DNA of 63,021 bases, filler included, from Sphacelaria rigidula (lineage: Eukaryota), in NCBI GenBank assembly GCA_964200075.2. It is 8 parts of 8 records of this genome, joined end to end, with 100 filler letters (N's around TTAATTAATTAA, not from the genome) between each part and the next. Parts side by side here need not be neighbours in the genome. Positions count along the whole stretch, not along the records: positions 15,784 to 23,574 come from CAXNAA020013449.1; 7 more parts are not named here. One strand, written 5' to 3'. Numbering within the stretch: the first letter of the stretch is position 1; each line of letters starts with the position of its first letter. The notes under the pieces were generated by a model. It did not search any database. It was given only the letters and a program-made list of their open reading frames with translations, and was not told the DNA's origin. Positions 15,221 through 55,133 of this stretch are shown piece by piece. Both the position numbers and the translations under genes were made by a program.

Positions 15221-15605
15221 AAATCTACAGTCCTCCATCATTTTTGTTCGAGACTCCAGCCTAATGACAGGAACGAACGCAATAATCTTAACTATTAACA
15301 AGATGGAAAAAAAAGAGATACGCCAAGAGCTTCCTGGCAACAAGGCCGTCCGTAATACTGGTAGCCCTTAGAGTCCCGTATGGTACTCGTACCTTCACGG
15401 GGCCCGAAAATATATAAATTTTCAATTAGGCGATACATGCCCTGTAATTGGTATCTGCGCCCCCCCTCCCCCAGTGCCAGGTCAATGGTCGTATGACTAT
15501 GGCATACAAGATCATGAGTACTCCCCCCCCCTCCCCCCGTGCTTCGTCTGGAAAGGGATGCGTGGTCAAAGGCCAAACGACTAAGTCAAGCAACAAATAA
15601 GAACG

Positions 15606-15639
<34 letters not shown>

Positions 15640-15783
15640 AAACGTCCTGGGTTCCTCCCTCTGTAACGCGACAAAAAAAACCCNNNNNNNNNNNNNNNNN
15701 NNNNNNNNNNNNNNNNNNNNNNNNNNNTTAATTAATTAANNNNNNNNNNNNNNNNNNNNNNNNNNNNNNNNNNNNNNNNNNNN

Positions 15784-15856
15784 TGTGCGAATTGAGGTGC
15801 AAGTCGGGTTGCCCACTTGGGCCTCAATTCAGACTTGAACCTCAATTCGCACAATT
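15784..15856. repeat. Inverted repeat at the contig start, probably the end of a MITE inserted in the HUH transposase C-terminus
   Basis: tgtgcgaattgaggtgcaagtc ... gacttgaacctcaattcgcaca (21/22 match), with an internal third cctcaattc unit. Confidence 0.55.
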
Positions 15857-16899
15857 TGCTGTTGAGACCAGAAATTCTTCTTGCCGACTTCGAGGCGCAC
15901 GTCCTTCACCACCTGACGCTGCAGCTTCCGGTACTCGGCGAGAGCGACGTTAATCTCCGTGCGTGACACGTTTTTAGTCGCGGTCCGGAAGTGGCCTCTC
16001 CCGACATCCTTGGAGCAGTAGCCGACCATAGCTGGAGGGATATAGAAGGCGCACATGGAGAAAGGAGCGACGAAAAGGGAAGAGCGGTGTGAGGTAATGG
16101 ACGGGAAAGAAGATAGGAGGAAGGAAAGGGTCGGGAGTGAAGGCGTACAGTAAGATGTGCAATGCAGGAGGGAGAGGTGAGGGTCGGAAGAAAGGGAGGA
16201 AGAATTCCAAGAGATATTTGCAAGTAAAAAACGAGAGTAGGGAATGATGCGTGAGCGATATTCAAAAAAGGAAATAAAATTGGAAGGGTACGAAGAGAAA
16301 AAGAACTTGCCTTCAAAAGACTGCTTGGCACCGAGAGGCTTAACGTCAATCTTGAGTCGTAGATCAGGTCCCCAACTCTCGAACGTCTTCAAGTTGTTAC
16401 GTTCGTCCGTGTTCACCTTCTTATCATCGTCGTAGGCCTTCAAGATTCCCAATGTAAGAATCCCCTGGACGTGTAGGTTCCCCTTTTGCCCCCCTCGCTC
16501 GAGACTAACTAACCCGCGCGTCGCCTTCTTCTCCAAGAAGTGCGCCGCGTCATCGAGAACGGTGGCGGGTATGTTCCCCGCGTCGCGGGATGCTCTCGTC
16601 AGAGAGAAGTCCACAGGATTCCCTGTTCCGTAATTGATGATGTTGTCGATGACGTCACCGGTGCGGGGGCAGAGGCGGACCGGAGATGGCTGACGCCGCG
16701 GACGACCGCGAGGCCGCGGCCAGGGGATGGAAGGGTCGGCAGCGGAGAGAGGACAGGTACCGCTGACGTCGCCGGCGGCGCGGAGTTCGGCCGAGAAAGC
16801 ATCGGCACCCCTGGCGTCGGAGGCAGCGGGGCGAGGGGCGGCGCCGGCAGGGCGGCTGGAATTGGCGGCGCTGGCAGCGGTGGATGAAGCGGACATAGC

Positions 16900-17045
16900 G
16901 CCGTCGGAACCGGAGGGGATAGCTGAGGTGGTACGAATGGAGGGGGCGGTGCGACTGGAGGTGACGCCGTCGGAGCCGGAGGGGATAGCTGACACGGTAC
17001 GAATGGAGGGGGCGGAGCGACTGGGGGTGACGCCGTCGGAGACGG
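16900..17045 (-). repeat. 60-bp coding tandem repeat (~2.3 copies; SDGVTxSRxAPSIRTxSAIPSG)
   Basis: ccggaggggatagctga..cggtacgaatggagggggcgg.gcgactgg.ggtgacgccgtcgga occurs twice. Confidence 0.9.
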
Positions 17046-17494
17046 CGGCGATGCGGGGGCATCCGCGGCGTCGCGGTTGACCGGCGAGTGGAGAGGATTG
17101 TGCGGTGGCGGCAGATGTCCGGACGGGATCCTCGGCAGTAGAGACGCGGGGACGACGACCACGCGACCGCCCCGTGCGCGTAGGCCCATCAGGCGCAAGT
17201 GAAGGCGCAGGCCGGTCGTCAGTCGTACCCGTAGAACCCTGCATGGCCGCAGGGTGCGGCGACGGGGTGACACCTCCGGCGTGTTAGGGGTTACGAGGTG
17301 GAGACGCCGTTGTGAATGTCGTGGGCGACGCCCGACGCGCTAGAGAGGAAGGAGAGAGTGGCGTTGACGGGGAGGAAAGGAACAAGTTTTAGAAAAAAAT
17401 AAGAATAAACGATGAGAAGATGAGATAATATCTGTAGTTATGTTGGAGGAATGAGAAGAAATAAAAAAATCAACGTCGCGAAAATAGTGTGTTC

Positions 17495-18005
17495 CCCTCG
17501 TCCAAAAAATAAATCTTCCCCTTGTCCAAAAAACAAATCCAACCGTCCATCCTAAAATATATCATTGATTCATTCGATCTAATAATGTACTGATACCTGG
17601 AAATAGATTATTGCCCTTAACTCATGAAAAAGAAAATTGTCTTCCCCTTGTCCAAAAAATAAAATCCAACCATGCATCCTAAAATATATAATACCTTATT
17701 CATTTTATTTACCTATAATTTATTTGTATCTATTGTCTTTGCCTTGACCAAAAAATAAAATCGAGCCATCCATCCTCAAACAATGTTTGATTAATTAGTT
17801 CATTAATTATTAAGTAAATGAATAATATTTTATACTTGCTTTTCACTCAGGACCTCACAATTTCGGTCATCAGAATAGATGTTTGTATGGCGTGTAGTGG
17901 TTATCAATACAAGCCCAAAAAATAAAACCCAACCGTCCATCCTATTGTATTTTCCTTGTCCAAAAAATAAAATTCAATCATCCATCCTCAAACAATCTTT
18001 AATGA
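17495..18005. repeat. Array of ~6 degenerate CCTTGTCCAAAAAATAAAATCCAACCATCCATCCT motifs in an AT-rich transposase intron
   Basis: Copies near 17495, 17518, 17645, 17742, 17914, 17954. Confidence 0.8.
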
Positions 18006-18623
18006 ATTCATTATTTATTTTAATTACAATTAAATTACAAGCTCAAAACTCACAAATGAAGGTAAAGTTAGGCGTCATAGAAGCTATGCGCTAGCTGTTC
18101 TTTCTTGTAGTAATTGGTGTTGTCCCCAGTGGTATAACGTGTTCGAGCGCAAATAAATACAGAGTAATGATGAAACTTGGAAAATATCACAGAAGTTATG
18201 AATTGATGCACCAGAGAGGGGAAGGTGGGGAAAAGGTAAAAAAGAAGAAGAAAATTAACGTATCGTACAAAGTGAGAACTGTATACAGGGTGATGATGGA
18301 GTGGGGAAACATGGAGAAATATATTCGCTGATGGAGACGTGGTGCAGACGCGATATTTCGAAATACTACAAATAAGAAATTGGATGTGGAATACAAAATA
18401 CGGTTAGGTATCATGAAAAAAAAAATGACGAAATGAAGAGAATGTGAAGTGGGAGAGACTAGCGCCATAGAGATCCGAACGAAATCGTACAAAACAGGAA
18501 GAAAAATACAGACCGGGAAAAAGTGAGAATACTAGCAATGAAAAAAACGTAAAACGGAACGAACGGCTTCCCATAATTTGCAGGGCTATATCACAGATGC
18601 TTGGAGTTTCACTTATATATGAC

Positions 18624-18865
18624 AGGAGACGGATAATATCCATGTTGCCATACACTCTTGATCAGAGTTGAGAAGCAAAGCCAAATATTGGGTGATGGAG
18701 ATGCGGTGCAGACGCGAATTTTGGATTTAGAACATACCTAAACATTTCAGGTGAAAGGAGACGGATACAATCCATGTTGCCATACACTCTTGATCAGAGT
18801 TGAGAAACATAGCCAAGTATTGGGTGATGGAGATGCGGTACAGACGCGAATTTTCGATTTAGTAC
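18624..18865. repeat. 132-bp tandem duplication (partial third copy ~18325-18360)
   Basis: aggagacggata..atccatgttgccatacactcttgatcagagttgagaa...gatggagatgcggt.cagacgcgaatttt at 18624 and 18756. Confidence 0.9.
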
Positions 18866-21079
18866 ATAAACATTTTATGTGGGAAAGGAAGTACTACTAG
18901 GGAGTATAAAACATGCAAGAATAAAGTGAAGGAAGCATTAACTGGAAGAGACAAAGAAGAAGATATCAGAAGAAATGACAAAAAGAGAAAAAAAATAGAG
19001 AATATCAGTAATGGAAACAAAACAAAAACGTTGATAAAAACGATGGGTATACCTCACAAATCAGGCGAGAGCGTTGCATTGTCGGAGACAGAGTCGACGG
19101 AGGCAATCGGCGTTCCGGTCTTCCAAGCGGGGGCTGTAGTGTTGCTTTGTACACGCTGCTTCTTGGGCGGAGATTCGTATTCGTTGGTGTGGTCGTCGTC
19201 GTCGGACTCGTTGCTGTGATCGTCTAATTCGTCGTCGGACGTTAGACACTGGGGGACGTCGTCTCGTTTCTTCCCCAAGAAGACGTCGTACTCCTCGAGA
19301 GCTCGGCGCTGCTACTTCGTACACTTGGTGACGAACGCCTGAGAGGAAGAGGGAAGTACGAGAGAACGGTGTAGCGGGTGAGAAATCAGGAATATAATTA
19401 GCTTGTGTGCGGTGGACAGCGGGTCGGAGAAGGACATGCAAAGTAGGGAATCGCGTGGGCGAAACTGAGGAGGAGGTGATTAAAATCAAAAGAGAATGAC
19501 TTTAAATATTCAAAGCACACTAATTATAAGGGATGCTGCTATACAGAATTACTTGACGAAACAAATTCCAATCCATATCCATAAAACGTTTATTCTTATA
19601 TTAAAATTCGAGGATTTGTTTTCAACAAAATAAGGAACCTCTTTAATTTTTAATTTTGACTACTTACTGAAAACATCAACTATTAAACATTAATTTTTTA
19701 ATTTTGGCAGGCGCATATATTGCTGAAGCAGTTAAGGGACATTAAGATATAATTACAACTTTAAAATTAAATTTGCCTACTTCAAAAGAAACAAATGATG
19801 AATTCAAAAAAGAGGATTAAGCGACCCATTAAACGAATAATTTTTAAAGGTTTTGAGGTAACGTGTAGTCATTGAGTCCATCTGCGGCCGCAGAAGTAGA
19901 ATTCAGGGTTTTTGTGCAGAACTATGGGCGCGAAAAAAACAGGAGTAAAAACTATGTTGCAGAGATTCCCGAGATACAGCAGATTTTGAAGAGAAATGGA
20001 CATAATTGGCGCAGATTTCGAAGAGGACAGCGCAGAGTTGCCATTTGCCCGGGCGAAAAACCTGCAGGCAGACAGACTGACGTCCTCTTTCAAGGGCCGC
20101 ACACGTTACACGTTCATGTTGCACATATGAGATCAAAAGTGAAGCCATGCCAGTACTACGGTGGCGGACGGGGACAAGGTGGGGAGCTCTGTTAAAAAGT
20201 TAAGTCAGATCAGAGGTCCCTACACGGTCGCCGTCGGTATTAATACCCCCGCTTAACATTGGAGGTACCAAAAAAAAGGCAGAGAAGAAACAAATGCACA
20301 GGAAAGGCGCAAAAAAGCGAAAAAAAAGCAGGAACAATACATGAAATGCGCAATAAACGAGCGAAATAATGAGGAGATTGACTCAATGGGTAGTGACGTC
20401 GCGGTTGTGCGGTCGAGAATCACGAAATACACAGTGCAGTACAGTCAGAGACAAAAACAGCGGAGGCGGAATCGAAAAATAAAAATACGGTGGCAAAGGC
20501 AACTAAGGAGGGAGATGGTGCATACAACACAGATAGTGCAGGAAACTGCGAAAGTACGAATGAGAGTTGTGAATCGTACCGGCATTGAAAGAATTTATGG
20601 TGTGGTGTAAAGTCGTGACGAGGACAGTTCAGAAGAGGAGGACATTACCTATTCAGTACGATACAGTACGACGTCGCGTGTACGCACAAAACGGGTGGAA
20701 TACTATAACATGGTAAGAGGACCCACCTTGGCCTTCACCTTCAACCGCCGTCGAAGGTATGGCCTCAAGTCGTTGGCGACCTCCTTCGCGTCGTCAGGAT
20801 CGGACGCGGCGAAGGCCCACGTAGACGGCGGCACCACGCCTGGTACCCCGTCAGGCAGGTACAGATACCTCTGTCGTTTGAGGGCCTCCCGAACAGCGTA
20901 CCCGTTCTCGACCAGAACACAACTCGTTTTGTTGGGCACCGTGATGTGAATTGCCTGGCCCAACATATACTACAATACAGCTTGCGGTAGTAATGTGTTC
21001 TTTCTAAGCCGCGGATGAAGTGTAAAGGGTGGGAGGGGAGGGGGAACCTTCGTCGCAGAGACGCGATGAAATGGGAGAT

Positions 21080-21430
21080 CAGTGGCTGTGGAGCCGTTCG
21101 TTGTTCGGAGGAACGAAAGGGCACGCGGCCAGAATAAGAGTGTTTATTTTGCGGGGAAATTTCGTTGACGTTTCCGCGGTGAAATACGAGGATTTAGAGT
21201 CCGTTTGTTCGTCGGACGATCGAAAGGGCATGCGGCCAGCATACGAGTGTTTATTTGTCGGGGGATTTTTGTTGACGTTTCCGCGGTGAAAAACCGGGAT
21301 ATAGAGTTTTTGGGAGAACAGTGACTGTGGAGCCGTTCGTTGATCGGAGGAACGAAAGGGCACGCGGCGAGCATACGAGCGTTTATTTAGCGGGGAATTT
21401 TTGTTGACGTTTCGGCGGTGAAAAACCGGG
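21080..21430. repeat. ~110-130-bp tandem repeat, 3 copies
   Basis: ccgtt.gtt..tcgga.ga.cgaaagggca.gcgg..ag.ata.gag.gtttattt..cgggga..ttt.gttgacgtttc.gcggtgaaa three times. Confidence 0.88.
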
Positions 21431-22056
21431 GTATTATAGAGTTTTCCGGGATACTCCATTGCGTTATTCGCAGCGGATGAAAGGCACATAGAAGAGGATT
21501 TGTAGAGAGGTATGGTACGGTAATACGGCGAAATAGCGGGATTTAGATCTTTCCCGGAAATTCCGATGGGATATAGCCTGCGGATGAAACGCACCTTGGC
21601 GGTCATCGAAGTGTATCATGTGTGATTGCCGTGGGTTTATGGGATGTACAGGGTCGATTCTGTTGTGGTGTAAGTGTTATTATACAGCGCCTGTAACATG
21701 TACGAGTCGTTCGAAGTGGGCTTGGAAAGGACGACGTACCAGCGCAGGCATGAGGCGGGGATGAAATGGCGTTGGCGAGGAGTGATGACGGTAGGGAAGA
21801 GCGGGCGAGAAACTGGGCGGGCGATACGGTATGTGCTCATAATGTGTATGTTACTACCATTGATCCCCACCATCGAGAGATTAGTGCATATTTGCCGTGA
21901 CCTCCGAACGTGCATGGTGTATGATTGCGTGAGAGTGAGCGACGTTTTGACGTACGTCTAAGAAACGCCGCGAAGGATTTTTTGAACACCAATTAAAGTG
22001 AAAAACAGACTTTTTAGGACGAGGGGACGACAACATCAAGTGAAGAAAAAGTACAC

Positions 22057-22176
22057 ATGATCCAGACAGACTAATCTCGCGGTCTAAGGGTTAGCCCTTA
22101 CGGGGAGAGAGTTGGGTCATCTGCTGAATCGGCATCAATTTCACTTGAAAAACGTGTGCATGATTCAGATGGACTG
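22057..22176 (+). repeat. Dispersed repeat, also at ~59495-59672 where it is tandemly reiterated
   Basis: atg.tccaga.agacta.tctcgcggtc.aagggtta.ccctt...cggcatcaatttcacttgaaaaa...gcatgat.cagatggact in both contigs. Confidence 0.8.
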
Positions 22177-22285
22177 AGGTTTTGCCACAAGAACCATCAT
22201 AAATCATCTTCACCTGTTCCCACACCATGAATTTTCCGAGAACTATCTTCACCATCCCAAGTGGTAAACTCTACTGTAGGGTTAA

Positions 22286-23061
22286 GGCGGCATCTTATCA
22301 GAAGTGATTATCATTTTTCAAAAAATCACTTTTGGAGAAGTGATTGCCCCCACAACGGCCAGTGCTGTGTCTTGTCGACAGGCAGTTTTGTTCAGATCGA
22401 AGCCCAGATCTGCGCATAGGTAAAAAATGCGGTGGTTCTGGAAGTGGCCGTTAGTCCAAAATGTCTGTACTGCTGCGGACAAGACGCAAAGAGGTAAAAC
22501 AGCGCCGACACACCTAGCCACGAAAACAGACGGATAGATATTCACCACTCACGCGCATTAGCTCAAGTGCTAGCTCTTGATCATCTACGTACGACAGCCT
22601 TTGTTTGACGGAAATCCGTCCAGTATTAGATGAGAAGCGGCCGCTTGCGTGTCAACTAGCAACCCAAAACGTGCTGTTGCTGACTGTTTTTGAGCGTGTG
22701 CTGTGCGCGCGTCTCACGCAAATAATCATTTCTCACCGAATTCTGAACCGATTTGAATAAGGTCACGCACAGCGTGCTCAGCTGATGAGCAGCAATGAAT
22801 GGAGCGGTGTGTTTTGGTTTGAGAGGCTAATACATTTATCAGGTTCACGTTTGATTGTGTTGACTTGTCTGTCAAGACTTCGGTTATGCCCCTGTCAACG
22901 GGATGTTGTATGTTCCCGTTCGAGGTGTCACCAAATCACTTTTACAAAAGTGATTTTTTGGCACTTTTTGGAGGGGGTGGTATCGCAGCAACCAATCATC
23001 GGTCTTTTTTCACAAAAGTGATTGTTTGAAAAGTGATAATCACTTCTGATAAGACGCCGCC
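22286..23061. mobile_element. Complete PIF/Harbinger (Tourist-like) MITE, 776 bp
   Basis: ~50-bp TIRs GGCGGC(A/G)TCTTATCAGAAGTGATTATCA..; TAA target-site duplication at 22283-22285 and 23062-23064; second copy at 54715-55133. Confidence 0.9.
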
Positions 23062-26000
23062 TAACGCTTACGCCGTTTCTTCCGGTTGGTTATTTCCTCT
23101 CCTTATTTGCAAATAACGAGTGAAAATAACAAGATGGCTACCTACGGTTGGTTATTTCACAAGATTCTCGGGAAAAACATACGAGCGGGGGGACATTTTA
23201 CGAGATGGGCGCTCCTGGCTTCTTGTTATTTTTGAAAAAATACGAGACGAGATTGACTTGTATTTTTCTCTCGTTTTCTCATTTGCGGCGCGGCGAGATT
23301 AGCTACGCCCGCCAGCCCTGAATATGTTTGTGCCCTTGGACATCTGCGGGGCTCTTCTGACAGCAATGTCGAACACCCCCAACGCCGTTTACACCGTGGA
23401 CCAAATTTTGCTTCGCCATCCCGGCGCACGCGAGATGTCGTAAGGGGCTGATGATCTATTGGCATCGATCGTTCTCTCGAAAACCTGGCCTCACGCTCGA
23501 TAAGACTTCTCTTAGAGCTTCCAATTCATGAAGTAAGCAACCGCGGCCTGTACCTTCAGGCTTAGGCTACACAGNNNNNNNNNNNNNNNNNNNNNNNNNN
23601 NNNNNNNNNNNNNNNNNNTTAATTAATTAANNNNNNNNNNNNNNNNNNNNNNNNNNNNNNNNNNNNNNNNNNNNATTAGCCTCCCTGCTTACGGCTCTAG
23701 GGCTGATAGTTTATCCTGAATACATAGTGCCTCATTCTGAAAACGGGAAAATACTTCATGTTCTTCAGGACATGAATCCAACAATATGTTACCAAGAACT
23801 GAAAAAGAAAACCCGATCCCGTCAGGAAAAAACCTTTCCAGCCACACACAGACGTCGCAAACTCGTCTACTCTAGCAATCGAAAGCTCAAATCCTGAATA
23901 TAATCAGTTGTTCGCAACCCATCCATGCTCCACTTCAACAATTGTTTGCGTCAGTCAGCACAAAACAAATAGATACATGTGTATCAATCTCAGTCATCAC
24001 CAGTTCCCAAATCTTCCTCGGAACAACTAAAAATCACACATGAATGCACAGTGGACACCCTTTTCATACTCCTCAGTTACCATGATGACATTCGAGAAAC
24101 ACACTCAATCTTCCAATACATGAATATGTCAAAAACGCACTATTCTCATGGTAACAAGATGCTGTTGTCTATGTGAAGTTCGATTCAACATACCGTCTAC
24201 AACATGGTCTACATCAGGCAAGTGTCTACAGTCAACATGTCCAGTGACCGAGATATCACTCCACTGAACAATAACATGACTCCTCGAAATAGTATGCAAA
24301 ATAAACACTGCGAAATGAAAACTTGCAGAAGTGGTGTGTGTTCCACTTCCCTTCGAGTTCGAGAACAAGATCCAAATTCAAATCGAATCAATTCAAGTTC
24401 AAATCGCTAAAACTAGATATATGCTCGAACACAAAAATATGTAGATTTTCCACCTGTCCCAACATAAGAACACAAGACCGGCTCCTGTTTGTACCACTCT
24501 GTTTGCTAGAAAAACAACATCAGCCTCCCTGATGTCGACTATCTATCAACTGCCTAGAATAGTTGATATAACCCACATCAGTGAAAACTTGTAAGCTTGG
24601 ATCCTTTTATGTCAGAACACGAAAAAATCTCTTTCGAACCTCGTTCACTTCATGGACCCTAGAATACCCAGAGAAAATTTATGTACCGGTACACTCGTGC
24701 ATTTCACAACGACTTGTACTGCTTATATCCTATCAGGGAGAAACTCGGAACATAAAACCAAACTCTGTAAACACTAAAAATATTGTAACCAAAATTAGCG
24801 GTTGATTAGTCCACTTAATTTCGAATTACTGATCTTTGATGAAAATTTCGCTCGTCATCCGGCCCGATAAATTCCCAAAATCGTCAAACTCATCGTCCCG
24901 CTCTTAGAATATTTTCTCTTTCACAAAAAATCAATCCCTGTACACTTAAGTCCAAGTGTATGCAAAGAAGTCAAACTAGGAGTTACTCTGCATAAACAGT
25001 ACACCCACACAAATATCAGGACGGATATTACTCCTTGAATAAACGCCACACCCTGGAGAGAACATAACATAAATTACTCCGTATTAAAACGCCCCCCCCG
25101 ATTCAATATTACATGTTGATTTTCAGGGAGTATTGCTTCCAGGTAGTACATGAAAACATAACATCGATGACCCCAGAGTCAATTGTCGTGAGTCATCCTG
25201 GTGCATAGTCAGTCCCGCATGTTGAACGGCGGGTGGGTAGTCAATTGTTTAGTGACACCAAAGACTAAAAACCGTTCCACTCTCGGAAGTATAATCGAGG
25301 TTGAATCCACGCCATGTTCTTTTCGCAATTGAAAATATCCAACCCAAAATCCAGAGCCGGTGAATCACGTTGTCAAAAACGTTTTAGCGCGGATCGCAAA
25401 ATATTAAACTCCCTCTCGAAATCCATAACCGACGGATCAAATTATCCAAAATACCCCGCCGTGGATCACCTCATTACATGATTTTTCTCCCAAAACACTC
25501 CGCTGTGGATAACCCCATCACATGAGTTCTCTTCGTTTTTAATTACCCGAAAAGAGAATCATGGAAGCAAATAGCCAATCACCCCCCCATTATTTTCTTC
25601 CTCGATAATTCCAAAATCATTGCAATCATGTGAAGGATCAAGTTAAAAAAATCATAACAAAAAAACTGTAGTACTTCGTAGGGCGTAGGGAACAAAAACT
25701 AGAACAACCAAACAAAAAATGCAACCACGGGACGTTTCACATGGTTGGCATGTCACGTTGCTGCGAACAACGAGACGGAAATATTCCGAATCAAATCCAA
25801 ACTCCCAAACAAATCAAATGATAAAAACCTAAATGCCAAAGCGTGTTTGGTTCCTGCCCTGGCACTTGCTAAGTCCCCCAAGCGGTTGTGTTGTCGTCGC
25901 CCAGGCCGCGGTCGCTGTTTCGGTTTGGTTCTTGCGGTGTCGCGGTTTGGGCTTCGTCATACTTTGTTTTGCACATCCGCCTGGGTTCGAAAGCAGTTCC

Positions 26001-27202: not shown

Positions 27203-27792
27203 CGCCTAACATACCCCAGAATACCAAGCGCAGCACGCCAATGAAGGTGTTTTGGTGAGGCACAGTACCTCGCTACTGCACGTACTGCGTTAGATATGTC
27301 TGGCCTCCTTTGAGTTGCCAGCCACATCAGTGACCCGATCAGTTTCCGAAACGGAAATTCCGTTGCCTGCTCTTCTACACTGAACTCTTCAAGCTTCGCA
27401 CCAACAGTGATGGGGATACTCTTTCCTCACTCTACTCCGTATTCCTTCGCCAACTCTTCTGCGTACGTTTGTTGTGAAATTTTCAGAGTCCCCCTTGCAA
27501 TTTCTCTCTCATAGTACAGTCCAGAATACCAACGCAAATCCCCGAGGTTTTTGACTGGAACCATCGTGTTGAGATCTTTACTAAACTCGTCACATCTGTC
27601 CTCCTCCCCCACTGCGAATATATCATCTACATGTACTACAATGGTGATAATCACCCTGCCATCCTCAATCAACCGAAATACACATGAATCCGCCAAGCAC
27701 TGATCAAATCCTAAGACAAATAAACATTCCGCCAGATGATTATGCCACTGCCTACTTGCCTGTTTCAATCCGTACAAACTGTTTTTGAGAAA
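27203..27792 (-). mobile_element. Ty1/copia reverse transcriptase (RVT_2) fragment, pseudogenised
   Basis: LKNSLYGLKQASRQW..GFDQCLADSCVF..VHVDDIF..LGDLRWYSG..ISQQTY..*..FRKLIGSLMWLATQRRPDISNAV..HWRAALGILGYV; internal TGA at 27427-27429; both ends truncated. Confidence 0.95.
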
Positions 27793-30700
27793 ACCTTGAA
27801 GTCGCCTGTGCGAAGCGTAGCCTGATCCCCTGGGGGACTAAGCCTAAGACATGTAAATCCCTAGCAGTCCGTACATGAGCCCTGACCCAAGTCATGCTAG
27901 CAGAATAGGAAGACTCATGCACCGAGTGCACTGTCGCGGGAAGTTGTAGGCCTGCCATGGCCAGTTGAGACCAGATATCATTAATGTAATTGATTCACTC
28001 TCGTATTTGCCCACTCACACATACCACACACATGCTGAAACCACCACTGAATCAGAACTGACACACAACTGAATCAAGTGGGGCGGGAAATCGTTCATAC
28101 AAAATCATACGTCATGACCTATATTTTCGGCACGCGAAAAGGCGTGTGCCCCCAGTAGACTTGTACTGCAAGCACTAGATCGGGTATACCTCAAATAACA
28201 GAACTAGTCTCTTATTCGTACTTCCCCTGTATGTCATGATCCAATCTTGATATTCATTTCCCTCGTATCCAGGCAGATCCTGGAGCGTAAGTATAATCGA
28301 TTAAGCGTTTCCCGATCGGTGCTGGTTATCCTTGCAACCTGACCAAGCTTTCGCTTGTCCGCTATTTTTTCGTGCTGATTTACCGGAGATTCGAGGTGAC
28401 ATGCCTCAACAAGGCAGTGAGAGCGAACGCGTGGATTGCGATGTATCCCTCGTGTTGTGGGTGGGATGTGGGTATTCTGGCTTGTCTCTTTGATGGACAA
28501 GAACGTTGAGAGTTTTGAGATACGTCTGTGTGTACCTGAGAAGTGTCTTATACGCTGGGCAATGGGCTCTGTAATTGAACATTCCCGCCACTATAGCCCC
28601 GGATATATGTGGATTTCAAAGTCCACTGTCAGCTACAAGGGACTAGCATGGCCTCCTGCCGATAGCTATTATTGTGGTCGACAACAGACTCAGGAAAATG
28701 GACACAACGCATCATCGCCGTAGCAATGGAGTGGGCAACTCGTCTATCGATACGTTCTATCTGTCTCAATAGCCTCTAATTTGCGGCCACCAATGCCTAT
28801 TGCTGGTCGCAGCAGTGCCGCGTTCCGGTGGTTCAATCGTACAACCGACATCACTGGGGTGGAAGGAACGCGTATTCGATTCCCGCGAGATGCGTTAGAG
28901 TTTTTTCTTCAAAGTATCCGATTCGCGCTGTTGAGGGCATGTTGAGAGCATGAGGACGTGAGTAACAAGAAGAGTTTTAATGGGTCTGTTCAACGAGAGT
29001 TGACGTGGTGTGGGAGTGCTGATGGTCATGATCCAATCCTGTGATGGTAAATGACCGCGTGCGTGGATTAAACTTATACTCTGGATGTTGTGACAATCGT
29101 TCCCAAAAAAGAGAATTCTAGTCGAATGTGTGCGTGTAAAGTAAAACTTGGATTAAGCAGATGATTGATTAAGCAGCGCCGCCGAGGTAGGTACGTCTTG
29201 ATGAGTTTGTAGACGGGAGATCAGTCTCTACATGATTGGCCATATGGGCTCGTTGCTGCTTAAGCTTTGATTGGCCAAAAGCACGACTCGTCAGGCTGAT
29301 TTTGTAATATGGCATACGCGTGGCCGGAGAAAGGTTTTGCAACCCACAGCCCCCGCCAGACACTCGTCCTCTCCGACCACATCAGTCTACCTCCTTTTGG
29401 ATACAGGGCTACAGTAGAACGACAATCAATCAAACCACCAAGTCATCAACAGCACCGCTGACGTCTCCCTTCTACTGGGTCTCCGAGTCCATAGCCTGGC
29501 CAACGTGGGGTGTTAGGCTGTGTGTAACATAATAAGACTTTTTGTACATCTTTACCCTTGGATTGTTGATTTAAAAGGACTGGTCACTGATCCCAAACAG
29601 CTGTTGCTGTGGTGTGCACGTGAGAAGGATTGCCTGGAGCGGGCAGGGGTATCACGAATTTATTCAGGACAAGCTTGCTATCATCCCTTCATTGGGGGTG
29701 CGGCTTGCTCACACTACCACAATCCGGGATACCAAAAGGCAAGGTGTGCGGCGGGGAAGAAAGAGATTGACCCTCGTAAGACCACAGGCTCGTCCCGACG
29801 AATGAAAGAGGTTGAAAGTGTGTCGGAAAAAAAAACTGATCACGACCGCCAAGGTCTACAGCTTGTGACAATAGGGTCTGAATCGCGGCCAGCAATGTCT
29901 AATGCTGGCCATAGTCATACCATGGTAGGGGTCCACATTCAGCCGTAGATGTTTCTAAAACAGGGGTCAGGAGCTACAAAAAAAAAAGATCAGGACATGC
30001 CCGTTTCGAAAATCATTTGGGATATCCCTACGAGCTGGACCAGCCGTAAGACGTAGAAACGCACATCACACAACAACTTCTCAAGTTTCCTGAATCAGAC
30101 CGATTTAAGGGCTCACCTCCCACAGACAGGGGTGACTCAAGTGAATAAAAATATTTTCGCGCGAAGCGCGATTATGGCCGAGCGTTTAAAAATTGGCACT
30201 CGGCAAAAATTGAGGACCCGTCTGAAATCAGGCGAAGAGTCATCACATGGGGGACATGTGCTGTATCACTGTGCTGCAGCACAAACATCCTCATGCCCTC
30301 TCTCGTGTGCTCTTGCCGTCATGACGCTGTGGTGTGTTCAGATTCTTCGCAAAGGCGGTTTGGTGTCCGCTGGGGCTTTATTGCCACTGCGTTCGTCTCT
30401 ATAGAAAGTATTGTTAGTCGGCACGCAGTGCTGTCTACACACTGTTGAAACCTTCATGGTGTGTTGGCTGTTTCGTCTTCCGTCAAACGAACAAGGCGCT
30501 TCCCATACCCACCATTTCTATGTTGTGGTTGCTGTTGTGCTGTTGTGCAGTTGAATACCCTACGACGGACTCAGTGTGATGTGCGCTGGAGAGGGCCTGA
30601 ACAGCTGCATGCCGTGTTTAGGTCTGCACAGAATTGGGGTGGGATCAAAGTGCTGTCTATACAAAAGTTGAAACAAGGGCAATGGCCTGGGAAAGGTATA

Positions 30701-32849: not shown

Positions 32850-35800
32850 CTAATTACCACCACCACCGCGCCCGCCACCGGCTGCAGCTACAAGCCGCCC
32901 CGCAAGCTGTGAGGCAATCAGATCAGACCTCATCTGCGCGTCCGTGTATCTTTCCAAAGCTCGCGACAAGCTGCTGCTCTCGCCTGTCCCCACCCCCTCA
33001 TCGCCGTCACCAGCAGGCTTTTGCCCGCCGGCCCTACGTCGCTCCCTAGCCACGATTTCCACGGCCTCCATTTCTTCCCGCAGCGCTTTCGCGGTGGCCA
33101 TGACCAAGGTTCGCCCTTCCTCCGACGCATGATTCGCGAACGCACTCACGCCGTCCGGTAGGGCGCCAGCGGTGACCTGAAGCAGCACGGTCGAAGCGCC
33201 GGCAGAGTCTCCAGAGCGTAGCGTGCATTCCGCGGTGCGCTCCGAGCAATCCACCACAAGGGCGGCGGCACCGCCCGCCCAGGGTTCGGGCAGGACGGTG
33301 AGAGAGGATAAGGTCCGTACGGCCTGCGGCAGCGCCGCAAGGCTGGTTGAGTCCGAGTGTAAGAGTAGATCGAGCCGCGTTCCCACGTCGAACAGGCCGA
33401 GGTGATGGTGTTGGCGATAGTGGGGATATTGCAAACTGGCGCAGTTCTCGGGTTCAGCGTCACCGCAGCCAGCTCCGTCGACACTACTCCCGCTGGGTAG
33501 CTGGCATGACGTATTTGAACCCTTTCGCCCGAAATCTGATGATGCGGCATATCGCGAAGGTGACGGCTCTGTTGGGGTCGTCGGCAACAACGGGGTGAGG
33601 AACTGCGTGTCTCCTGATGCCGACCCTAGGATACCCACGCCGAGCATGTCCTGGGGAGAAACGAGTACACGTGCGAACACAGCAGAGGAATTCACGCGCG
33701 AGACGTCCTCCTCAGCCGCCGTCTCTGCTGCCGTGGAGGGCTTCCCTTCCGTGTCGTTGGCGGTGGATACGGGGTTGCTGCACTCCCAAGACCACTGACA
33801 CGAGGCATAGAGCGCGACGGTGCCATCTGAGAGTTCTTCCACTGCCGAGGTTCCGGCACCGGACGACAGCAAGCCTGTCGGCACCTCAACGCAAGCGCGA
33901 ATTGTTGCGGACGCCCCTGGAGCCAAGCGTGGACAAACTGCGCTACGGGTGCTGAGGCGTCCCGAAGGAGATGCCACGGACAAACATACATTGACCGCTG
34001 CGCTCTTCCCTGGCCCTCGGTCCGGCCCCGTCATTGTGGCGGTGGCATCATCCTTGATGCCGTAATGATCGTGCGGGCTCTCAACGTGAGCGTCAAGGCA
34101 TAGAGTTCGCGATGGGGCATGAAAACGGACGCGATCTACAGCGCAACGCAGCGGCTGCCGGGGGGTGACGTTCGGGGCCGTCGGCGGGCTCGATGCAGGT
34201 GTTGCTGTGGGAACAGCCCCAGGGAAACAAGGGACTAGCCCCTCGCTGAATTTTTCGACGGCAGAGCACAGCAGCCCGGGAACCTCGCCGACGCTACCAC
34301 CGTCGGCGGTTCCATCCACCTGTGCCATCAAAGACAACCTCGCGGCGTTCAACAAGGCCGTCTTTCCCCGTTGTGCCTGTCGTAACCGTAGTAGACGAGC
34401 TTCCTCCGCCTGCACGCGTCGGCGGAGAACACCTACAACGGCTGAGAGGCGGCCAAGTCTACAGTCATCACCGACGCCACCGTCCCTACAGTCACTCCCC
34501 GAGCCTGCGGCCACATTACTTGCCCTCACGCTTTTGTCTATCTGTCGTTTATCGTCAGCAGTATTGCCACCACTCTCCGTCCGCTGTCGCTTCCGTCCTG
34601 TTGCCGTTGCCTTTGAAATGCTCGCCGCAGCTACATCTGCCGCGTCGTTCCCAGATCGCCTGACGTCAATTATATCAATTACTCCAGCCCCCGGGAGAGC
34701 GGCGAGGTCATCGCGCAGGCCCTGGCCCCACACGCATGAGCAGTCCGTGACCAGCGCTCGTTTAACCTGAGACTTGAGCGGCAGTTGCTCCCACTCCGCT
34801 CCAGATTCAAACAATGCTGTCGCATCCTCCGCTGACTTTGGCCCCAAGGAGACTTGCGAAAGTAGCGCCACTTGCTCTCGCCCGTTCCCAAGAAAGTCGC
34901 CAGTAAACACGGCCGCAACACCTCGATACTCTTCCACAACTGGGAAATCGCAGCCGTCGCGAGCCAGCAGCAGCGCGGTGCCATCGGAGTCCTCGAGCAG
35001 CACTACCAACACACCTCTCCCGTCGTCGACAGCTGCCGTTACTACTGCTGATGGCGGGGCTGGAAGTGAGCGAGCACAGGACAGAGCACCGCCTTCTTGA
35101 AGTTCTAACAATGCCCCCCGTTCCCCGCCACTGGCAACCCTTGAAGTGTGTGCTCTTCGATCCCTGTCATCCGTTACACCGACGTACACAATAGGAGGCA
35201 CAGGATGCAGCACCAGCCCACCGGCATGATCAACTCCGGGCGTTGCGTCGGCAAGACTGACAATCCCAGAATCGGTCGCCGGAGCCGGACACAGACACAT
35301 AAGCGAGCTTCCCCACTCGGAGGGAGGGTCATACAGCGGCGAAAGGAGAGCCCGCCCTCCTTGGTCAAATGCCAGCGAGGCCCAGCTACTCATGTACCGT
35401 GAGTGGATGGAATGTGGGCCGGTTGCCGCTTCCGATGCCGCCGCCGTTACCGGGGCTGCAGCTACGGTAGGGAGTGCTACAATACCAGCCCTACCTTCGG
35501 CGACGGCAACGGCGCTTTTGAAGCCCCGACCTTCGGATGGTGAGAACCCAGCTTCCGCATGGACCGAATAGCATTCACTCGGCGGACACACAAGAACGGC
35601 GCCGCCGCCGCGCTTCTTCGAGCCAGAATCGTCTCCGCCTGACGGCAACTCACGCTTGCCATCGTTCGCACCGTCCAGGTCCAAGCGGAAGCTGCTCTCG
35701 GTACTAGATTTTCCAGGGCGGGATCCAAAAACGCTGTTGTGCTCTCGATCCCTTCTCACCGCCGTCCCATTCCCGCTCGAAGAATGCAAAGCTATCGGCG

Positions 35801-36770
35801 GCATCGTAGCACGTTGGCCGCGAAACGAACGCATCGTCAGTGTTCCTGTACCGTCATCTGGCTCTGACCGAAAGATTTCCAGCCCTCGCCAATGCTCGCC
35901 CGGTCGTGCGGCGGGCCGGTGAAGTACGACGGGGCCGTCCATTATGTCGAATCCACGCGGCAGTTCGCCGACGGCCACTTGTTCTACGCACCGCCCGCTG
36001 GCATCACTGCCTCCACTGCGTCCATCGCCGCGTGCGCCGCCACCACAACCTTTCTCATTATCTGAGGAGGGAACCGAAAGGCAGAAAGTGTTCACGGAGA
36101 GGGCCGAGAAAAGATCGTTGGGTGACAGTGTGACGAGGTGAGCAGTATCCACCGACTGTGGTCGCTCGAAGCGGGAGGTCGTATCGCGACTGTCTTCTCC
36201 GCTCACAGTTGTCGATGGACCCCCATCGCTACCACTACTGGCACCATGAGACGCAGCGCTTTCGTACAGCAATACAAACACGCAGCGGCAACGCAAGGCA
36301 GCGTGCATCGCCACCTTGGTGGCAACCACTTTGGCGGTTGGGAGGAATGTTAAGCGCGCTCCTCGCCCGGCCGAGCGGCCGTTGCTTCCGCTCCCTCTAG
36401 CCGTAACCAGAGACACAGGGCGTGATCTGCCCCCAAACCGCCGTTTGACGGAATCAAATCGAGACTCCGACATATGGAGGGCGCTCTCATTGATTCCTGC
36501 TACCGGCCGTGACGCCATACTCTTGTCTTTCCCAGCGCTGTGGGCAGACGACCCCCGCTGTTGTTGCTGTGTCGCCTCTGCTGGCGCGAGGTACGCCTGA
36601 ACGAGGGCTGCATTTGTGCTGGCAACAGGCCCGTAATGTGAGAGAGTGGCCACATCTTCTTTCGAAGACCGGCGTGATTTCTTTTTGAGATGCGATCCAC
36701 CCCTCGGCTGTGTCGGCGGAGCCATTGGACCTTCTGGCCTGGTTAGACACTGAGTGTTGTCACCGGTCAT
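32850..36770 (-). CDS. FANCB: Fanconi anemia group B (FANCB)-like protein, single long exon (1306 aa)
   Basis: Uninterrupted 3.9-kb ORF; FANCB-like motifs FDIMDGPVVL and VEEYRGVAAVFTGDFLGNGREQVALL..ALVTD; followed by a coiled coil (LRRRVQAEEARLLRLRQ) and a beta-rich region. Confidence 0.7.
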   Translation of the reverse strand: MTGDNTQCLTRPEGPMAPPTQPRGGSHLKKKSRRSSKEDVATLSHYGPVASTNAALVQAYLAPAEATQQQQRGSSAHSAGKDKSMASRPVAGINESALHMSESRFDSVKRRFGGRSRPVSLVTARGSGSNGRSAGRGARLTFLPTAKVVATKVAMHAALRCRCVFVLLYESAASHGASSGSDGGPSTTVSGEDSRDTTSRFERPQSVDTAHLVTLSPNDLFSALSVNTFCLSVPSSDNEKGCGGGARGDGRSGGSDASGRCVEQVAVGELPRGFDIMDGPVVLHRPAARPGEHWRGLEIFRSEPDDGTGTLTMRSFRGQRATMPPIALHSSSGNGTAVRRDREHNSVFGSRPGKSSTESSFRLDLDGANDGKRELPSGGDDSGSKKRGGGAVLVCPPSECYSVHAEAGFSPSEGRGFKSAVAVAEGRAGIVALPTVAAAPVTAAASEAATGPHSIHSRYMSSWASLAFDQGGRALLSPLYDPPSEWGSSLMCLCPAPATDSGIVSLADATPGVDHAGGLVLHPVPPIVYVGVTDDRDRRAHTSRVASGGERGALLELQEGGALSCARSLPAPPSAVVTAAVDDGRGVLVVLLEDSDGTALLLARDGCDFPVVEEYRGVAAVFTGDFLGNGREQVALLSQVSLGPKSAEDATALFESGAEWEQLPLKSQVKRALVTDCSCVWGQGLRDDLAALPGAGVIDIIDVRRSGNDAADVAAASISKATATGRKRQRTESGGNTADDKRQIDKSVRASNVAAGSGSDCRDGGVGDDCRLGRLSAVVGVLRRRVQAEEARLLRLRQAQRGKTALLNAARLSLMAQVDGTADGGSVGEVPGLLCSAVEKFSEGLVPCFPGAVPTATPASSPPTAPNVTPRQPLRCAVDRVRFHAPSRTLCLDAHVESPHDHYGIKDDATATMTGPDRGPGKSAAVNVCLSVASPSGRLSTRSAVCPRLAPGASATIRACVEVPTGLLSSGAGTSAVEELSDGTVALYASCQWSWECSNPVSTANDTEGKPSTAAETAAEEDVSRVNSSAVFARVLVSPQDMLGVGILGSASGDTQFLTPLLPTTPTEPSPSRYAASSDFGRKGSNTSCQLPSGSSVDGAGCGDAEPENCASLQYPHYRQHHHLGLFDVGTRLDLLLHSDSTSLAALPQAVRTLSSLTVLPEPWAGGAAALVVDCSERTAECTLRSGDSAGASTVLLQVTAGALPDGVSAFANHASEEGRTLVMATAKALREEMEAVEIVARERRRAGGQKPAGDGDEGVGTGESSSLSRALERYTDAQMRSDLIASQLAGRLVAAAGGGRGGGGN

Positions 36771-36878
36771 TCGTGGATACTCGCAACAGCACTACAACCA
36801 TTGTGTCATGTTCTAGGGGAAACTATTCCGATTATGGTGCTGTGGGAAGTGTACTTGTAGACGAGCTGAGTGGAGCCT
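36771..36878. promoter_or_regulatory. Putative bidirectional promoter / overlapping 5' UTRs
   Basis: Only 108 nt separate the divergent ATGs at 36770(-) and 36879(+). Confidence 0.55.
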
Positions 36879-54711: not shown

Positions 54712-54714
54712 TCA

Positions 54715-55133
54715 GGCGGGCTCTTATCAGAAGAGATTATCACTTTTCAAAAAATCACTTTTGGAGAAGTGATTGCCCCCACAACAACCAGTGCTGTGTC
54801 TTATCGACGGGCAGTTTTGTTCAGATCGAAGCCCAGATCTGCGCACAAGTAAAAAATGCGGCGGTTCTGGAAGTGGCCGTTAGTCCAAAATGTCTGTACT
54901 GCTGCGGACAAGACGCAAAGAGGTAGCACAGCGCCGACATAGCTATCCACGAAAACAGACGGATAGACATTCACCAATCACGCGCATTAGCTCAAGCGCT
55001 AGCTCTTCATCATCTACACACGACAGCCTTTGTTTGACAGAAATCCGTCGAGTATTAGATGAAAGGCGGCCGCGTGCGTGTCAACTAGCAACCGAAAACG
55101 TGCTGTTGCTGACTATTTTTGAGCGTGTGCTGT
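54715..55133. mobile_element. Second copy of the 776-bp Harbinger MITE, truncated by the contig end
   Basis: Colinear high similarity to 22286-22703. Confidence 0.9.

What the first reader, a model, noticed from the sequence alone, without database searches (positions are those of the whole stretch)
15829..22030. Replitron-like HUH (rolling-circle-type) transposon in a probable brown alga
Seen in sequence: the minus-strand ORF contains DFSLT..FLEKKATRGLVSLERGGQKGNLHVQGIL and, after one intron is removed, FEAMVGYCSKD..HFRTATKNVSRTEINVALAEY. Established knowledge: HxQ plus YxxK is the catalytic signature of CRESS-virus-like Rep HUH endonucleases. The ERGG..H.Q / M.GYC.KD..HF...KNV pattern is that of Replitron transposases, a recently defined eukaryotic group best known from green algae and non-seed plants. 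Helitrons differ in having YxxxY and a Pif1 helicase. Inference: this is a decayed copy of a little-described stramenopile Replitron family that fills most of the contig. No Walker A motif or capsid is visible, although the C-terminus is cut off.
Basis: partly seen in the sequence, partly recalled or inferred. Interest (0 to 1): 0.9.

Follow-up and report, generated by a model that had tools for sequence, protein, structure and literature searches.

The report
Truncated Replitron transposase gene, brown alga
This is a cut-off copy of the gene for a Replitron transposon enzyme (a DNA-nicking "HUH" protein) in a brown-alga contig, and because this transposon group and its presence in brown algae are already published, it is an ordinary new member.

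Summary
The minus-strand ORF 15829-17283 carries all the quoted motifs. It matches Pfam Replitron_HUH (PF21859) at E 2.1e-21, 77 bits against a cut-off of 28.5. Each exon passes the cut-off alone, and the two meet at profile positions 92 and 95 across a 279-nt GC-AG intron.

The nearest proteins are brown-algal: Sphacelaria rigidula at 91% over exon 1, then Ectocarpus and Scytosiphon. The predicted HUH fold is confident, and its best structural match is a circovirus Rep at Z 8.1. No helicase, capsid or Viral_Rep match was found.

First, Replitrons in brown algae were already reported by Craig 2023 (PMC10288648) and have Pfam models. Second, only about 15864-17244 is shown to be Replitron. Homology stops after ...KKNFWS at 15864/15863, where a hairpin that is highly repeated in the sequencing runs begins and the contig ends. 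The second Replitron domain (PF21860) is therefore missing here.

The 4.5 kb upstream, to 22030, has no recognisable coding content. It holds a repeated 21-45-nt motif array, and its link to the transposon is unresolved.

Verdict: new member of a known kind, low interest.

The parts
16311..17244 (-). Exon 1 of the Replitron transposase gene. It runs from the first ATG of the ORF (17244-17242) through a disordered Pro/Ser/Arg-rich N-terminus with an RGRP (AT-hook-like) motif, then the first two-thirds of the HUH domain.
   Evidence: Sequence read. Pfam PF21859 profile positions 10-92, 32.7 bits. 143/158 identical (91%) to P0001 of Sphacelaria rigidula. Homology to P0003 ends exactly at ...KQSFE.
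16597..16608 (-). Motif I (F-S-L-T, the SUTU signature), on beta-strand 1 of the model.
   Evidence: Sequence. Signature as described in Craig 2023 section 5. Model strand 28-38.
16498..16500 (-). Conserved Glu of SLERGG, the candidate third metal ligand.
   Evidence: Sequence. [quoted passage not shown] The neighbouring Gly is the one nearly invariant column of alignment A1.
16465..16473 (-). Motif II, H-V-Q (HUQ variant of HUH).
   Evidence: Sequence. HUQ is the Replitron norm. It lies on model strand 76-86.
16032..16310 (-). GC-AG spliceosomal intron, 279 nt, phase 1. It is open in frame, which is why the ORF reads through it.
   Evidence: Donor AAG|GCAAGT and acceptor CCTCCAG|. The exons abut at Pfam profile positions 92/95. 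Relatives read QTFS[AG]M[VL]GYCSKD across the same point. ORFs of relatives diverge after QSF[EG]G or start at MVGYCSKD. The laid part of a 2142-nt contig of run X6 stops exactly at 16311. In the model this stretch has pLDDT <50.
15864..16031 (-). Exon 2, truncated. It holds the end of the HUH domain with motif III and the linker helix, up to ...GKKNFWS.
   Evidence: Pfam profile positions 95-128/128, 44.7 bits. 50/54 identical (93%) to P0005. In P0001, P0005 and P0006 the same exon runs on into Replitron_C. Here homology stops.
16009..16023 (-). Motif III, G-Y-C-S-K (GYxxK). The single catalytic Tyr (Y1) is at 16020-16018.
   Evidence: Sequence. Signature. It lies on the short model helix 224-229.
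16899..17052 (-). 66-nt tandem repeat (2.3 copies) inside the N-terminal coding region.
   Evidence: TRF, 89% matches.
15784..15863 (.). Hairpin-bearing repeat 'H'. It consists of 10 nt plus a 22-bp stem (1 mismatch) with a 26-nt loop, and it abuts the point where transposase homology ends. It is also the contig end. Whether it belongs to the Replitron is unresolved.
   Evidence: Inverted repeat I3, 95% complementary. DNA fold -24.1 kcal/mol, z -6.7, 0 of 200 shuffles as good. Summed word depth of this bin is about 370 times that of the next bin in run X1 (86083 against 232). Joints leave it at 15863.
17483..18020 (-). Array of five direct copies of a 21-nt core motif, within units of about 31-79 nt. 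It lies 240-780 nt upstream of the start codon. Whether it belongs to the Replitron is unresolved.
   Evidence: Five minus-strand matches with <=3 mismatches, 0.00 expected. Repeat families D1-D3. High summed word depth over 17344-18123.
22011..22033 (+).
   Evidence: plus strand, 3 mismatches. Inverted pair I5. The similarity does not extend beyond 23 nt.

Best explanation
The locus is a 3'-truncated copy of a brown-algal Replitron transposase gene.

Shown here: a two-exon gene on the minus strand (ATG 17244; GC-AG intron 16310-16032) encodes a disordered N-terminus and a complete Y1 Rep-type HUH endonuclease domain. The domain has motif I FSLT, a conserved Glu, motif II HVQ and motif III GYCSK. 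The reading frame loses all family homology after ...KKNFWS at 15864/15863. There it meets a hairpin-bearing sequence that is highly repeated in the runs, and the contig ends 80 nt later. The second conserved Replitron domain (Replitron_C, a proposed oligomerisation domain) is therefore absent from this contig.

Inferred from the family (Craig 2023): an intact enzyme would nick one DNA strand at the element ends through the single Tyr, with the metal held by His/Gln/Glu. It would act as a multimer and copy-and-paste the element, perhaps by a rolling-circle route using host helicase and replication. This copy, as assembled, lacks domain 2. On its own it is most likely inactive, being either a dead fragment or a gene interrupted by another repeat.

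Only about 1.4 kb (15864-17244) is demonstrably Replitron. The 4.5 kb upstream is unassigned.
For: - Pfam Replitron_HUH: E 2.1e-21, 77 bits, cut-off 28.5, the only family at E<=10. Both exons pass the cut-off alone and are contiguous in the profile.
- All 7 of 7 word-search hits carry PF21859, and the 3 named ones are brown algae.
- Exon 1 is 91% identical to a Sphacelaria rigidula protein and exon 2 is 93% identical to P0005.
- The exhaustive search found 78 relatives at E<=1e-3. Of the 45 sequences aligned (the window, 42 of those 78, P0001 and P0005), 45 match Replitron_HUH, 14 match Replitron_C, 1 matches a zinc-finger model, and none matches any helicase or Viral_Rep model.
- Named cluster members are Ectocarpus spp. 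and, further away, a liverwort protein that UniRef calls 'Replitron HUH endonuclease domain-containing'.
- The AlphaFold model gives block pLDDT 89-98 over residues 11-130 and 221-260, with the motifs on the expected strands and helix.
- An all-against-all structure search puts a circovirus Rep first (7kii_A: Z 8.1, rmsd 2.7, 95 of 103 aligned). PCV2, nanovirus, vientovirus, smacovirus, geminivirus and pMV158 RepB nuclease domains follow at Z 5.9-7.2, spanning both exons.
- Truncation: relatives P0001, P0005 and P0006 continue into Replitron_C in the same exon. tblastn of 88 family proteins on the whole window gives 121 HSPs, none outside 15784-17300.
- More than one version of the gene stretch lies in the DNA runs: many positions show a second letter, and contigs are 85-99% alike. 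Ectocarpus sp. 6 has at least 3 distinct paralogues.
- Replitrons in Phaeophyceae are stated in Craig 2023 (passages).
Against: - No termini, terminal direct repeats or second full copy could be examined. No genome is held and no related locus was found in the metagenome or viral collections. Mobility and element limits are therefore inferred, not shown.
- Foldseek against the PDB gave 0 matches at E<=0.001.
- A Z of about 8 is, by the tool's own note, a typical best score for models without a clear match. ACT and ferredoxin-like folds are interleaved with the Reps.
- A sequence profile of the family finds no solved Rep (best E 0.62).
- Summed contig depth is not a copy number. The versions seen could be alleles or strains rather than paralogues.
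- The truncation could partly be an assembly effect, with the contig breaking inside a repeat. If so, the rest of the gene may exist beyond an inserted repeat.
Confidence: 0.85

Rival explanations
1. It is an internally deleted, non-autonomous Replitron whose own cis-elements are visible. On this reading the upstream motif array (17483-18020) is the left subterminal binding-site array. The downstream hairpin (15784-15863) is the right-end hairpin. The repeats abundant in the runs are a non-autonomous family mobilised by intact paralogues.
For: - The array lies 240-780 nt upstream of the ATG, in the gene's orientation.
- The hairpin lies directly downstream of the gene.
- Both have far higher summed depth than the gene.
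- One contig each in X1 and X4 joins 17636, a unit boundary of the array, to 15863, the hairpin edge, skipping the 1772 nt that hold the gene.
- A 2142-nt X6 contig about 95% alike covers the gene and the first array units together, to 17532.
- Replitron-1 has a right-end hairpin and a non-autonomous partner.
- After a 13-nt shift, the hairpin's first arm reads C-E-L-R-F-K-S-E-L-R-P against the expected C-V-R-R-F-R-E-E-F-L-R-P.
Against: - The joint contigs match on only 23 letters on the shorter side, at 85% likeness. Their depth (224 and 236) is only about 3-5 times that of ordinary contigs, so this is not the abundant form.
- The hairpin bin has several-fold more depth than the array, and the hairpin also joins to 23524, so it behaves as an independent repeat.
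- The frame-shifted similarity is weak: 93 of 3000 random windows scored as well (p about 0.03). Equally good spurious alignments abound.
- Two independent deletions sharing the exact 15863 edge would be unlikely.
- An inverted copy of the array motif at 22011-22033 fits a separate inverted-repeat element as well.
Confidence: 0.15
2. It is a host gene domesticated from a Replitron transposase (single locus, expressed, under selection) rather than a transposon copy.
For: - The reading frame and all catalytic residues are intact over 367 codons.
- The intron position is conserved in relatives.
- A contig of a run guessed to be RNA covers exon 1 and stops at the donor.
Against: - The frame is cut before domain 2, which all close full-length relatives keep.
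- More than one version lies in the DNA runs.
- Several distinct paralogues exist within one Ectocarpus genome.
- The gene is embedded among repeats.
- The RNA status of run X6 is only a guess.
Confidence: 0.07
3. It is an endogenised fragment of a CRESS-DNA virus Rep gene rather than a Replitron.
For: - The best structural matches are circovirus and other CRESS Rep nuclease domains.
- HUQ and Y1 are shared with circoviruses.
Against: - Pfam returns only Replitron_HUH, not Viral_Rep, at E<=10.
- No SF3 helicase or capsid is present in the contig or in 45 of 45 relatives scanned.
- A spliceosomal intron sits at a position conserved among brown-algal relatives.
- Close relatives carry Replitron_C.
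- No relative was found in the IMG/VR viral contigs.
Confidence: 0.03

Closest known systems
Replitrons (Craig 2023, PNAS, PMC10288648; Pfam PF21859 Replitron_HUH and PF21860 Replitron_C)
   Same: The Y1 HUH domain has the SUTU, HUQ and GYxxK motifs and the conserved Glu. There is no fused helicase. The N-terminus is disordered and the gene has introns. The host group, Phaeophyceae, is already listed by the paper.
   Different: This copy lacks the second domain. Its termini and short terminal direct repeats could not be defined. The closest full-length relatives have Cys-rich C-terminal repeats with a weak Znf_SCAND3 hit (E 8e-4). I did not find these mentioned for Replitrons in the passages I read.
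CRESS-DNA virus Rep nuclease domains (circovirus, nanovirus, geminivirus, smacovirus, vientovirus)
   Same: The fold and motif order match. HUQ and the single Tyr are shared. These are the best structural matches, at Z 6.2-8.1.
   Different: There is no SF3 helicase, no capsid gene and no Viral_Rep sequence match. The gene is nuclear with a spliceosomal intron. Sequence identity in the structural alignments is 7-16%.
Helitrons (RepHel transposases)
   Same: Both are eukaryotic transposons that use a Rep-class HUH endonuclease and probably copy-and-paste.
   Different: Helitrons have two catalytic Tyr and a fused SF1B helicase (abstract). Here there is one Tyr and no helicase in the contig or in the relatives.
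pMV158 RepB (plasmid rolling-circle initiator)
   Same: It is an HUH nuclease without a helicase, followed in intact proteins by a helical oligomerisation domain. It binds direct repeats next to a hairpin. Structural match Z 5.9-6.0.
   Different: It is a bacterial plasmid protein with no detectable sequence similarity. In this copy the second domain is missing, so that resemblance cannot be tested.

Membership tests
Replitron transposase | Rep HUH domain with motif I (SUTU), motif II (HUQ/HUH) and motif III GYxxK with a single Tyr. | tested here: met
   FSLT, HVQ and GYCSK were read. Pfam PF21859 E 2.1e-21. Both exons are above the cut-off.
Replitron transposase | [quoted passage not shown] | tested here: met
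   SLERGG at 16498-16500. The feature is described.
Replitron transposase | [quoted passage not shown] | tested here: met
   The AF2 model gives block pLDDT 89-98 over the domain, with elements in that order. The top VIA match is a circovirus Rep at Z 8.1. Foldseek alone was not significant.
Replitron transposase | Second conserved domain of about 90 aa downstream of Rep (Replitron_C, PF21860). | tested here: not met
   It is absent from this contig and from the window. It is present in the closest relatives P0001, P0005 and P0006. The absence reflects truncation at 15864/15863 and the contig end, not a different architecture.
Replitron transposase | No fused helicase. | tested here: met
   There is no Pfam hit in 87 other ORFs of the contig. 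0 of 45 aligned family members hit a helicase model. The missing C-terminus limits this test for the copy itself.
Replitron element | Multicopy element with short direct repeats at or near its termini. | tested here: inconclusive
   Several versions of the gene stretch lie in the DNA runs, but the depth is not a copy number. No second copy with flanks could be fetched, so the termini are undefined.
Replitron element | Copy-and-paste transposition. | not testable with these tools
   This needs de novo insertions or population data.
CRESS-DNA virus Rep | HUH nuclease fused to an SF3 helicase, with a capsid gene on a small circular genome. | tested here: not met
   No helicase or capsid domain in the contig or in relatives. 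No Viral_Rep match at E<=10.
Helitron RepHel | Two catalytic Tyr (Y2) and a fused Pif1-like helicase. | tested here: not met
   There is a single Tyr in GYCSKD and no helicase.

The most novel reading that the evidence does not exclude
The contig may show, for the first time in a stramenopile, the cis-architecture of a Replitron. This would be an iteron-like array of about five direct repeats upstream of the transposase gene and a 22-bp-stem hairpin downstream, resembling the direct-repeat-plus-hairpin origins of pMV158 and CRESS replicons. Both modules would be amplified to hundreds or thousands of copies as a non-autonomous family driven by a few intact paralogues.
Probability: 0.15. Interest if true: 0.45.

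Novelty: new member of a known kind. Interest (0 to 1): 0.15.

Why it matters
This adds one more, incomplete, brown-algal Replitron copy to a group that is already published and already modelled in Pfam. It changes no open question.

It has modest practical value. It shows that such copies are recognisable by PF21859 even when split by a GC-AG intron, so brown-algal gene annotations should mask them. The nearest public gene model, P0001, appears to use a different donor and drops seven conserved residues.

The flanking motif array and hairpin would matter only if a genome-wide alignment ties them to Replitron ends. Replitron cis-elements and mechanism are still unknown.

Tried and rejected
- Whole-genome search: no genome is held.
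- Related loci: the first metagenome try failed because alignment A2 was too diverse. With the closer alignment A3, 139 pattern matches in metagenome contigs and 28 in viral contigs gave no confirmed relative. An exact-pattern scan for the hairpin arms in metagenome contigs found 0.
- Earlier notes of this scan: nothing.
- Foldseek against the PDB: 0 matches at E<=0.001.
- Family profile against PDB sequences: only 2 rows at E<=10, both noise.
- Rfam and tRNA scans of the contig: 0 and 0.
- RNA evidence: no RNA holder is listed. X6-X9 are only guessed to be RNA. The low X6 cover over the intron bin and over parts of 20.2-21.5 kb is not used as evidence.
- Homology of the hairpin to the missing coding sequence: p about 0.03, judged too weak.
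- A long terminal inverted repeat pairing 17488 with 22032: the similarity is only the 23-nt core, so a classical TIR element is not shown.
- Upstream ORF 20706-20969 (minus): one 55%-identical unnamed 132-aa protein, no domain, uninformative.
- I considered a Rep phylogeny and more cluster look-ups. I left them out because the best hits already place the copy among brown-algal proteins and most relatives are unnamed.
- The spliced protein could not be submitted as one sequence. Searches and the fold therefore used the read-through ORF or the single exons.

Full report
**Layout of the window.** The 63-kb window is eight pieces of about 7.79 kb joined by N44-TTAATTAATTAA-N44 linkers. The finding lies in the third piece, 15784-23574. 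A 1313-aa ORF in the fifth piece is 96% identical to a partial Sphacelaria rigidula protein that sits on a 7790-nt contig. The pieces are therefore probably whole contigs of nearly equal length from that species or a close relative. No whole genome is held for the window.

**The observation.**
- Pfam returns one family at E<=10: Replitron_HUH (PF21859), E 2.1e-21, 77 bits against a cut-off of 28.5, in two stretches.
- Taken separately, exon 1 (16312-16701) scores 32.7 bits over profile positions 10-92. Exon 2 (15832-16029) scores 44.7 bits over positions 95-128 of 128.
- Removing 16310-16032 therefore restores a contiguous domain.

**The intron.**
- It has a GC donor in the strong context AAG|GCAAGT and a pyrimidine-rich acceptor.
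- It is 279 nt long and has no in-frame stop, which is why the ORF reads through it.
- Relatives support the junction. Ectocarpus and Scytosiphon proteins read QTFS[GA]M[LV]GYCSKD. Contig ORFs of closer relatives either diverge just after QSF[EG]G or begin at MVGYCSKD.
- The NCBI model of the closest protein, P0001, lacks seven conserved residues here. An alternative GT donor 21 nt upstream in the window sequence would give the same junction.
- A 2142-nt contig of run X6 lies on 16311-17532, and its laid part stops exactly at the exon-1 end. That is only a weak hint. The run's RNA status is a guess, and the table does not show where the contig's other 907 letters lie.

**Gene model.**
- ATG at 17244.
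- Exon 1 is 17244-16311 and exon 2 is 16031-15864.
- This gives 367 codons of family-like sequence, followed by 11 unrelated codons and a stop at 15829-15831.
- Catalytic residues are intact: FSLT (16608-16597), Glu of SLERGG (16500-16498), HVQ (16473-16465), and GYCSK with its single Tyr (16023-16009).

**Relatives.**
- The word-based search found 7 proteins at E<=0.001 among 583 candidates. All 7 carry PF21859. The three named ones are from Sphacelaria rigidula, Ectocarpus sp. 8 and Scytosiphon promiscuus.
- Exon 1 is 143/158 identical to the Sphacelaria protein. Exon 2 is 50/54 identical to P0005.
- The exhaustive search of 1.84 billion representatives found 78 proteins at E<=1e-3, 28 at E<=1e-10 and 2 at E<=1e-30.
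- I aligned the window ORF with 42 of those 78 plus P0001 and P0005. I left out the other 36, chosen by eye as mostly short single-exon fragments. Of the 45 sequences, 45 hit Replitron_HUH, 14 hit Replitron_C and 1 hit a zinc-finger model. No other family appeared at E<=0.001.
- A look-up of ten clusters named Ectocarpus sp. 4 and sp. 6 proteins, three of them distinct ones from sp. 6. It also named a liverwort protein that UniRef labels 'Replitron HUH endonuclease domain-containing'.

**Fold.**
- AlphaFold2 on the read-through ORF with that alignment gave mean pLDDT 76.5.
- Block values are 89-98 over residues 11-130 and 221-260, and below 50 over the intron-coded loop. The motifs sit on the expected strands and helix.
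- Foldseek against the PDB gave nothing at E<=0.001.
- The VIA all-against-representatives search ranked a Muscovy duck circovirus Rep first (Z 8.1, rmsd 2.7, 95 of 103 residues). PCV2, nanovirus, vientovirus, smacovirus, geminivirus, AAV and pMV158 RepB nuclease domains followed at Z 5.9-7.2.
- ACT-like and other ferredoxin-like folds are interleaved with these. The tool warns that Z near 8 can be a common arrangement.
- With the sequence evidence, this agrees with the CRESS-like Rep fold described for Replitron-1 (section 5 of the paper).

**What is missing.** In P0001, P0005 and P0006 the second exon runs on from ...KK[NS]FW into the Replitron_C domain. Here homology stops after ...KKNFWS. 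tblastn of 88 family proteins against the whole window gave 121 HSPs, all within 15784-17300. Domain 2 is therefore nowhere in the window.

**The hairpin repeat at the contig end.**
- From 15863 to the contig end at 15784 lies a different sequence: 10 nt, then a 22-bp stem with one mismatch and a 26-nt loop. As single-stranded DNA it folds at -24.1 kcal/mol, z -6.7, with 0 of 200 shuffles as good.
- When contigs of four runs were laid on the piece, the bin holding these 80 nt had a summed word depth of 86083 in X1. The neighbouring gene bins had 180-305.
- The tool states that this figure is not a copy number. It does show that the hairpin sequence is shared by very many contigs.
- Contigs leave it at 15863 for other places. 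These are 17636 (one contig each in X1 and X4, 23 letters on the shorter side, depth 224 and 236) and 23524.
- The simplest reading is that an abundant independent repeat abuts or interrupts the transposase gene and that the assembly broke inside it.

**The rest of the claimed span (17245-22030).**
- 0 of 15 ORFs >=100 aa and 0 of 72 ORFs of 45-99 aa have a Pfam hit.
- There are no Rfam families and no tRNAs.
- One ORF (20706-20969, minus) has a single unnamed 55%-identical relative.
- A 21-nt core motif occurs five times on the minus strand between 17488 and 17966 and once inverted at 22012-22032. It occurs nowhere else in the window, with 0.00 matches expected by chance. It sits within longer irregularly spaced units, and the array region also has very high summed depth.
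- The inverted similarity is only 23 nt long.
- None of this ties the 4.5 kb to the Replitron. The array could be the element's own subterminal repeats, or the end of another element.
- The rival 'non-autonomous Replitron with iteron array and hairpin' is kept at 0.15. The case for it: the 17636-to-15863 joint, the X6 contig that carries the gene and the first array units together, and a frame-shifted resemblance of the hairpin arm to the expected next residues. The case against it: the joint contigs have modest depth and a short side, the hairpin bin has several-fold more depth than the array, and the resemblance is weak (93 of 3000 random windows score as well).

**Comparison with what is known.** Of Craig 2023 (PMC10288648) I read the abstract and outline, sections 5 and 6, part 1 of section 9, and passages found by term.
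- The paper defines Replitrons by exactly this domain: Y1, HUQ, GYxxK, SUTU, a conserved Glu, a second domain of about 90 aa, and no helicase.
- It states that they occur in brown algae (Phaeophyceae), and that curated autonomous families are about 2-4 kb with short direct repeats at or near the termini.
- A full-text search for 'Replitron' found 11 papers, 9 of them listed. None is about brown algae by title.
- The copy meets the HUH-domain criteria, fails the domain-2 criterion through truncation, and cannot be tested for termini or mobility.
- It does not meet the helicase, capsid or Y2 features of CRESS viral Rep or Helitron membership.

**Verdict.** The extent and the novelty are overstated. 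This is a new, incomplete member of a known kind, and interest is low.

Noticed in passing
window 32853-36791 (minus): An uninterrupted 1313-aa ORF with no Pfam hit, in a GC-rich piece (0.57-0.61). It has 17 relatives at E<=0.001. One is a partial Sphacelaria rigidula protein (96% identity over 67% of the query). Another is a Pylaiella littoralis protein at 40% identity. Most of the rest are unnamed proteins of 1150-1500 aa. It looks like a conserved, uncharacterised brown-algal gene family.
   Followed up: partly
window 22276-23071: A MITE-like unit: 59-nt inverted repeats, 88% complementary, 678 nt apart. It lies in a stretch with extremely high summed contig depth. 22285-22704 is 93% identical to the end of the seventh piece (54714-55133).
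   Followed up: partly
window 22036-22175: A short repeat with sharp edges at 22115, 22152 and 22175. Hundreds of contigs of every run laid leave it there. It is 82% identical to 59513-59650 in the eighth piece.
   Followed up: no
window 27430-27837 (minus): A Copia-type reverse transcriptase fragment (RVT_2, E 1.7e-14).
   Followed up: no
window 38440-38760 (+) and 40794-41123 (+): Exon-like ORFs with Ras (E 2.9e-7) and EF-hand (E 1.2e-10) matches. These are presumably host genes.
   Followed up: no
window 18620-18868 and 21094-21307: Tandem duplications with periods of 132 nt (1.9 copies, 92% matches) and 107 nt (2.0 copies, 84% matches) in the unassigned region upstream of the transposase gene.
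   Followed up: no
window about 15605-15640 (end of the second piece): A run of about 35 G on the minus strand (C on the plus strand) close to a contig end. It may be a sequencing or assembly artefact.
   Followed up: no
proteins P0005 and P0006 (relatives, not in the window): The closest full-length exon-2 products end in one or two Cys-rich repeats (C..C...C..C..H..C pattern). P0005 has a weak Znf_SCAND3 hit at E 8e-4. Brown-algal relatives also share an RGRP (AT-hook-like) motif and a conserved CPxTGDxxDDxxDSGxG stretch just before the Pfam HUH domain. The window copy has both of these N-terminal features.
   Followed up: partly
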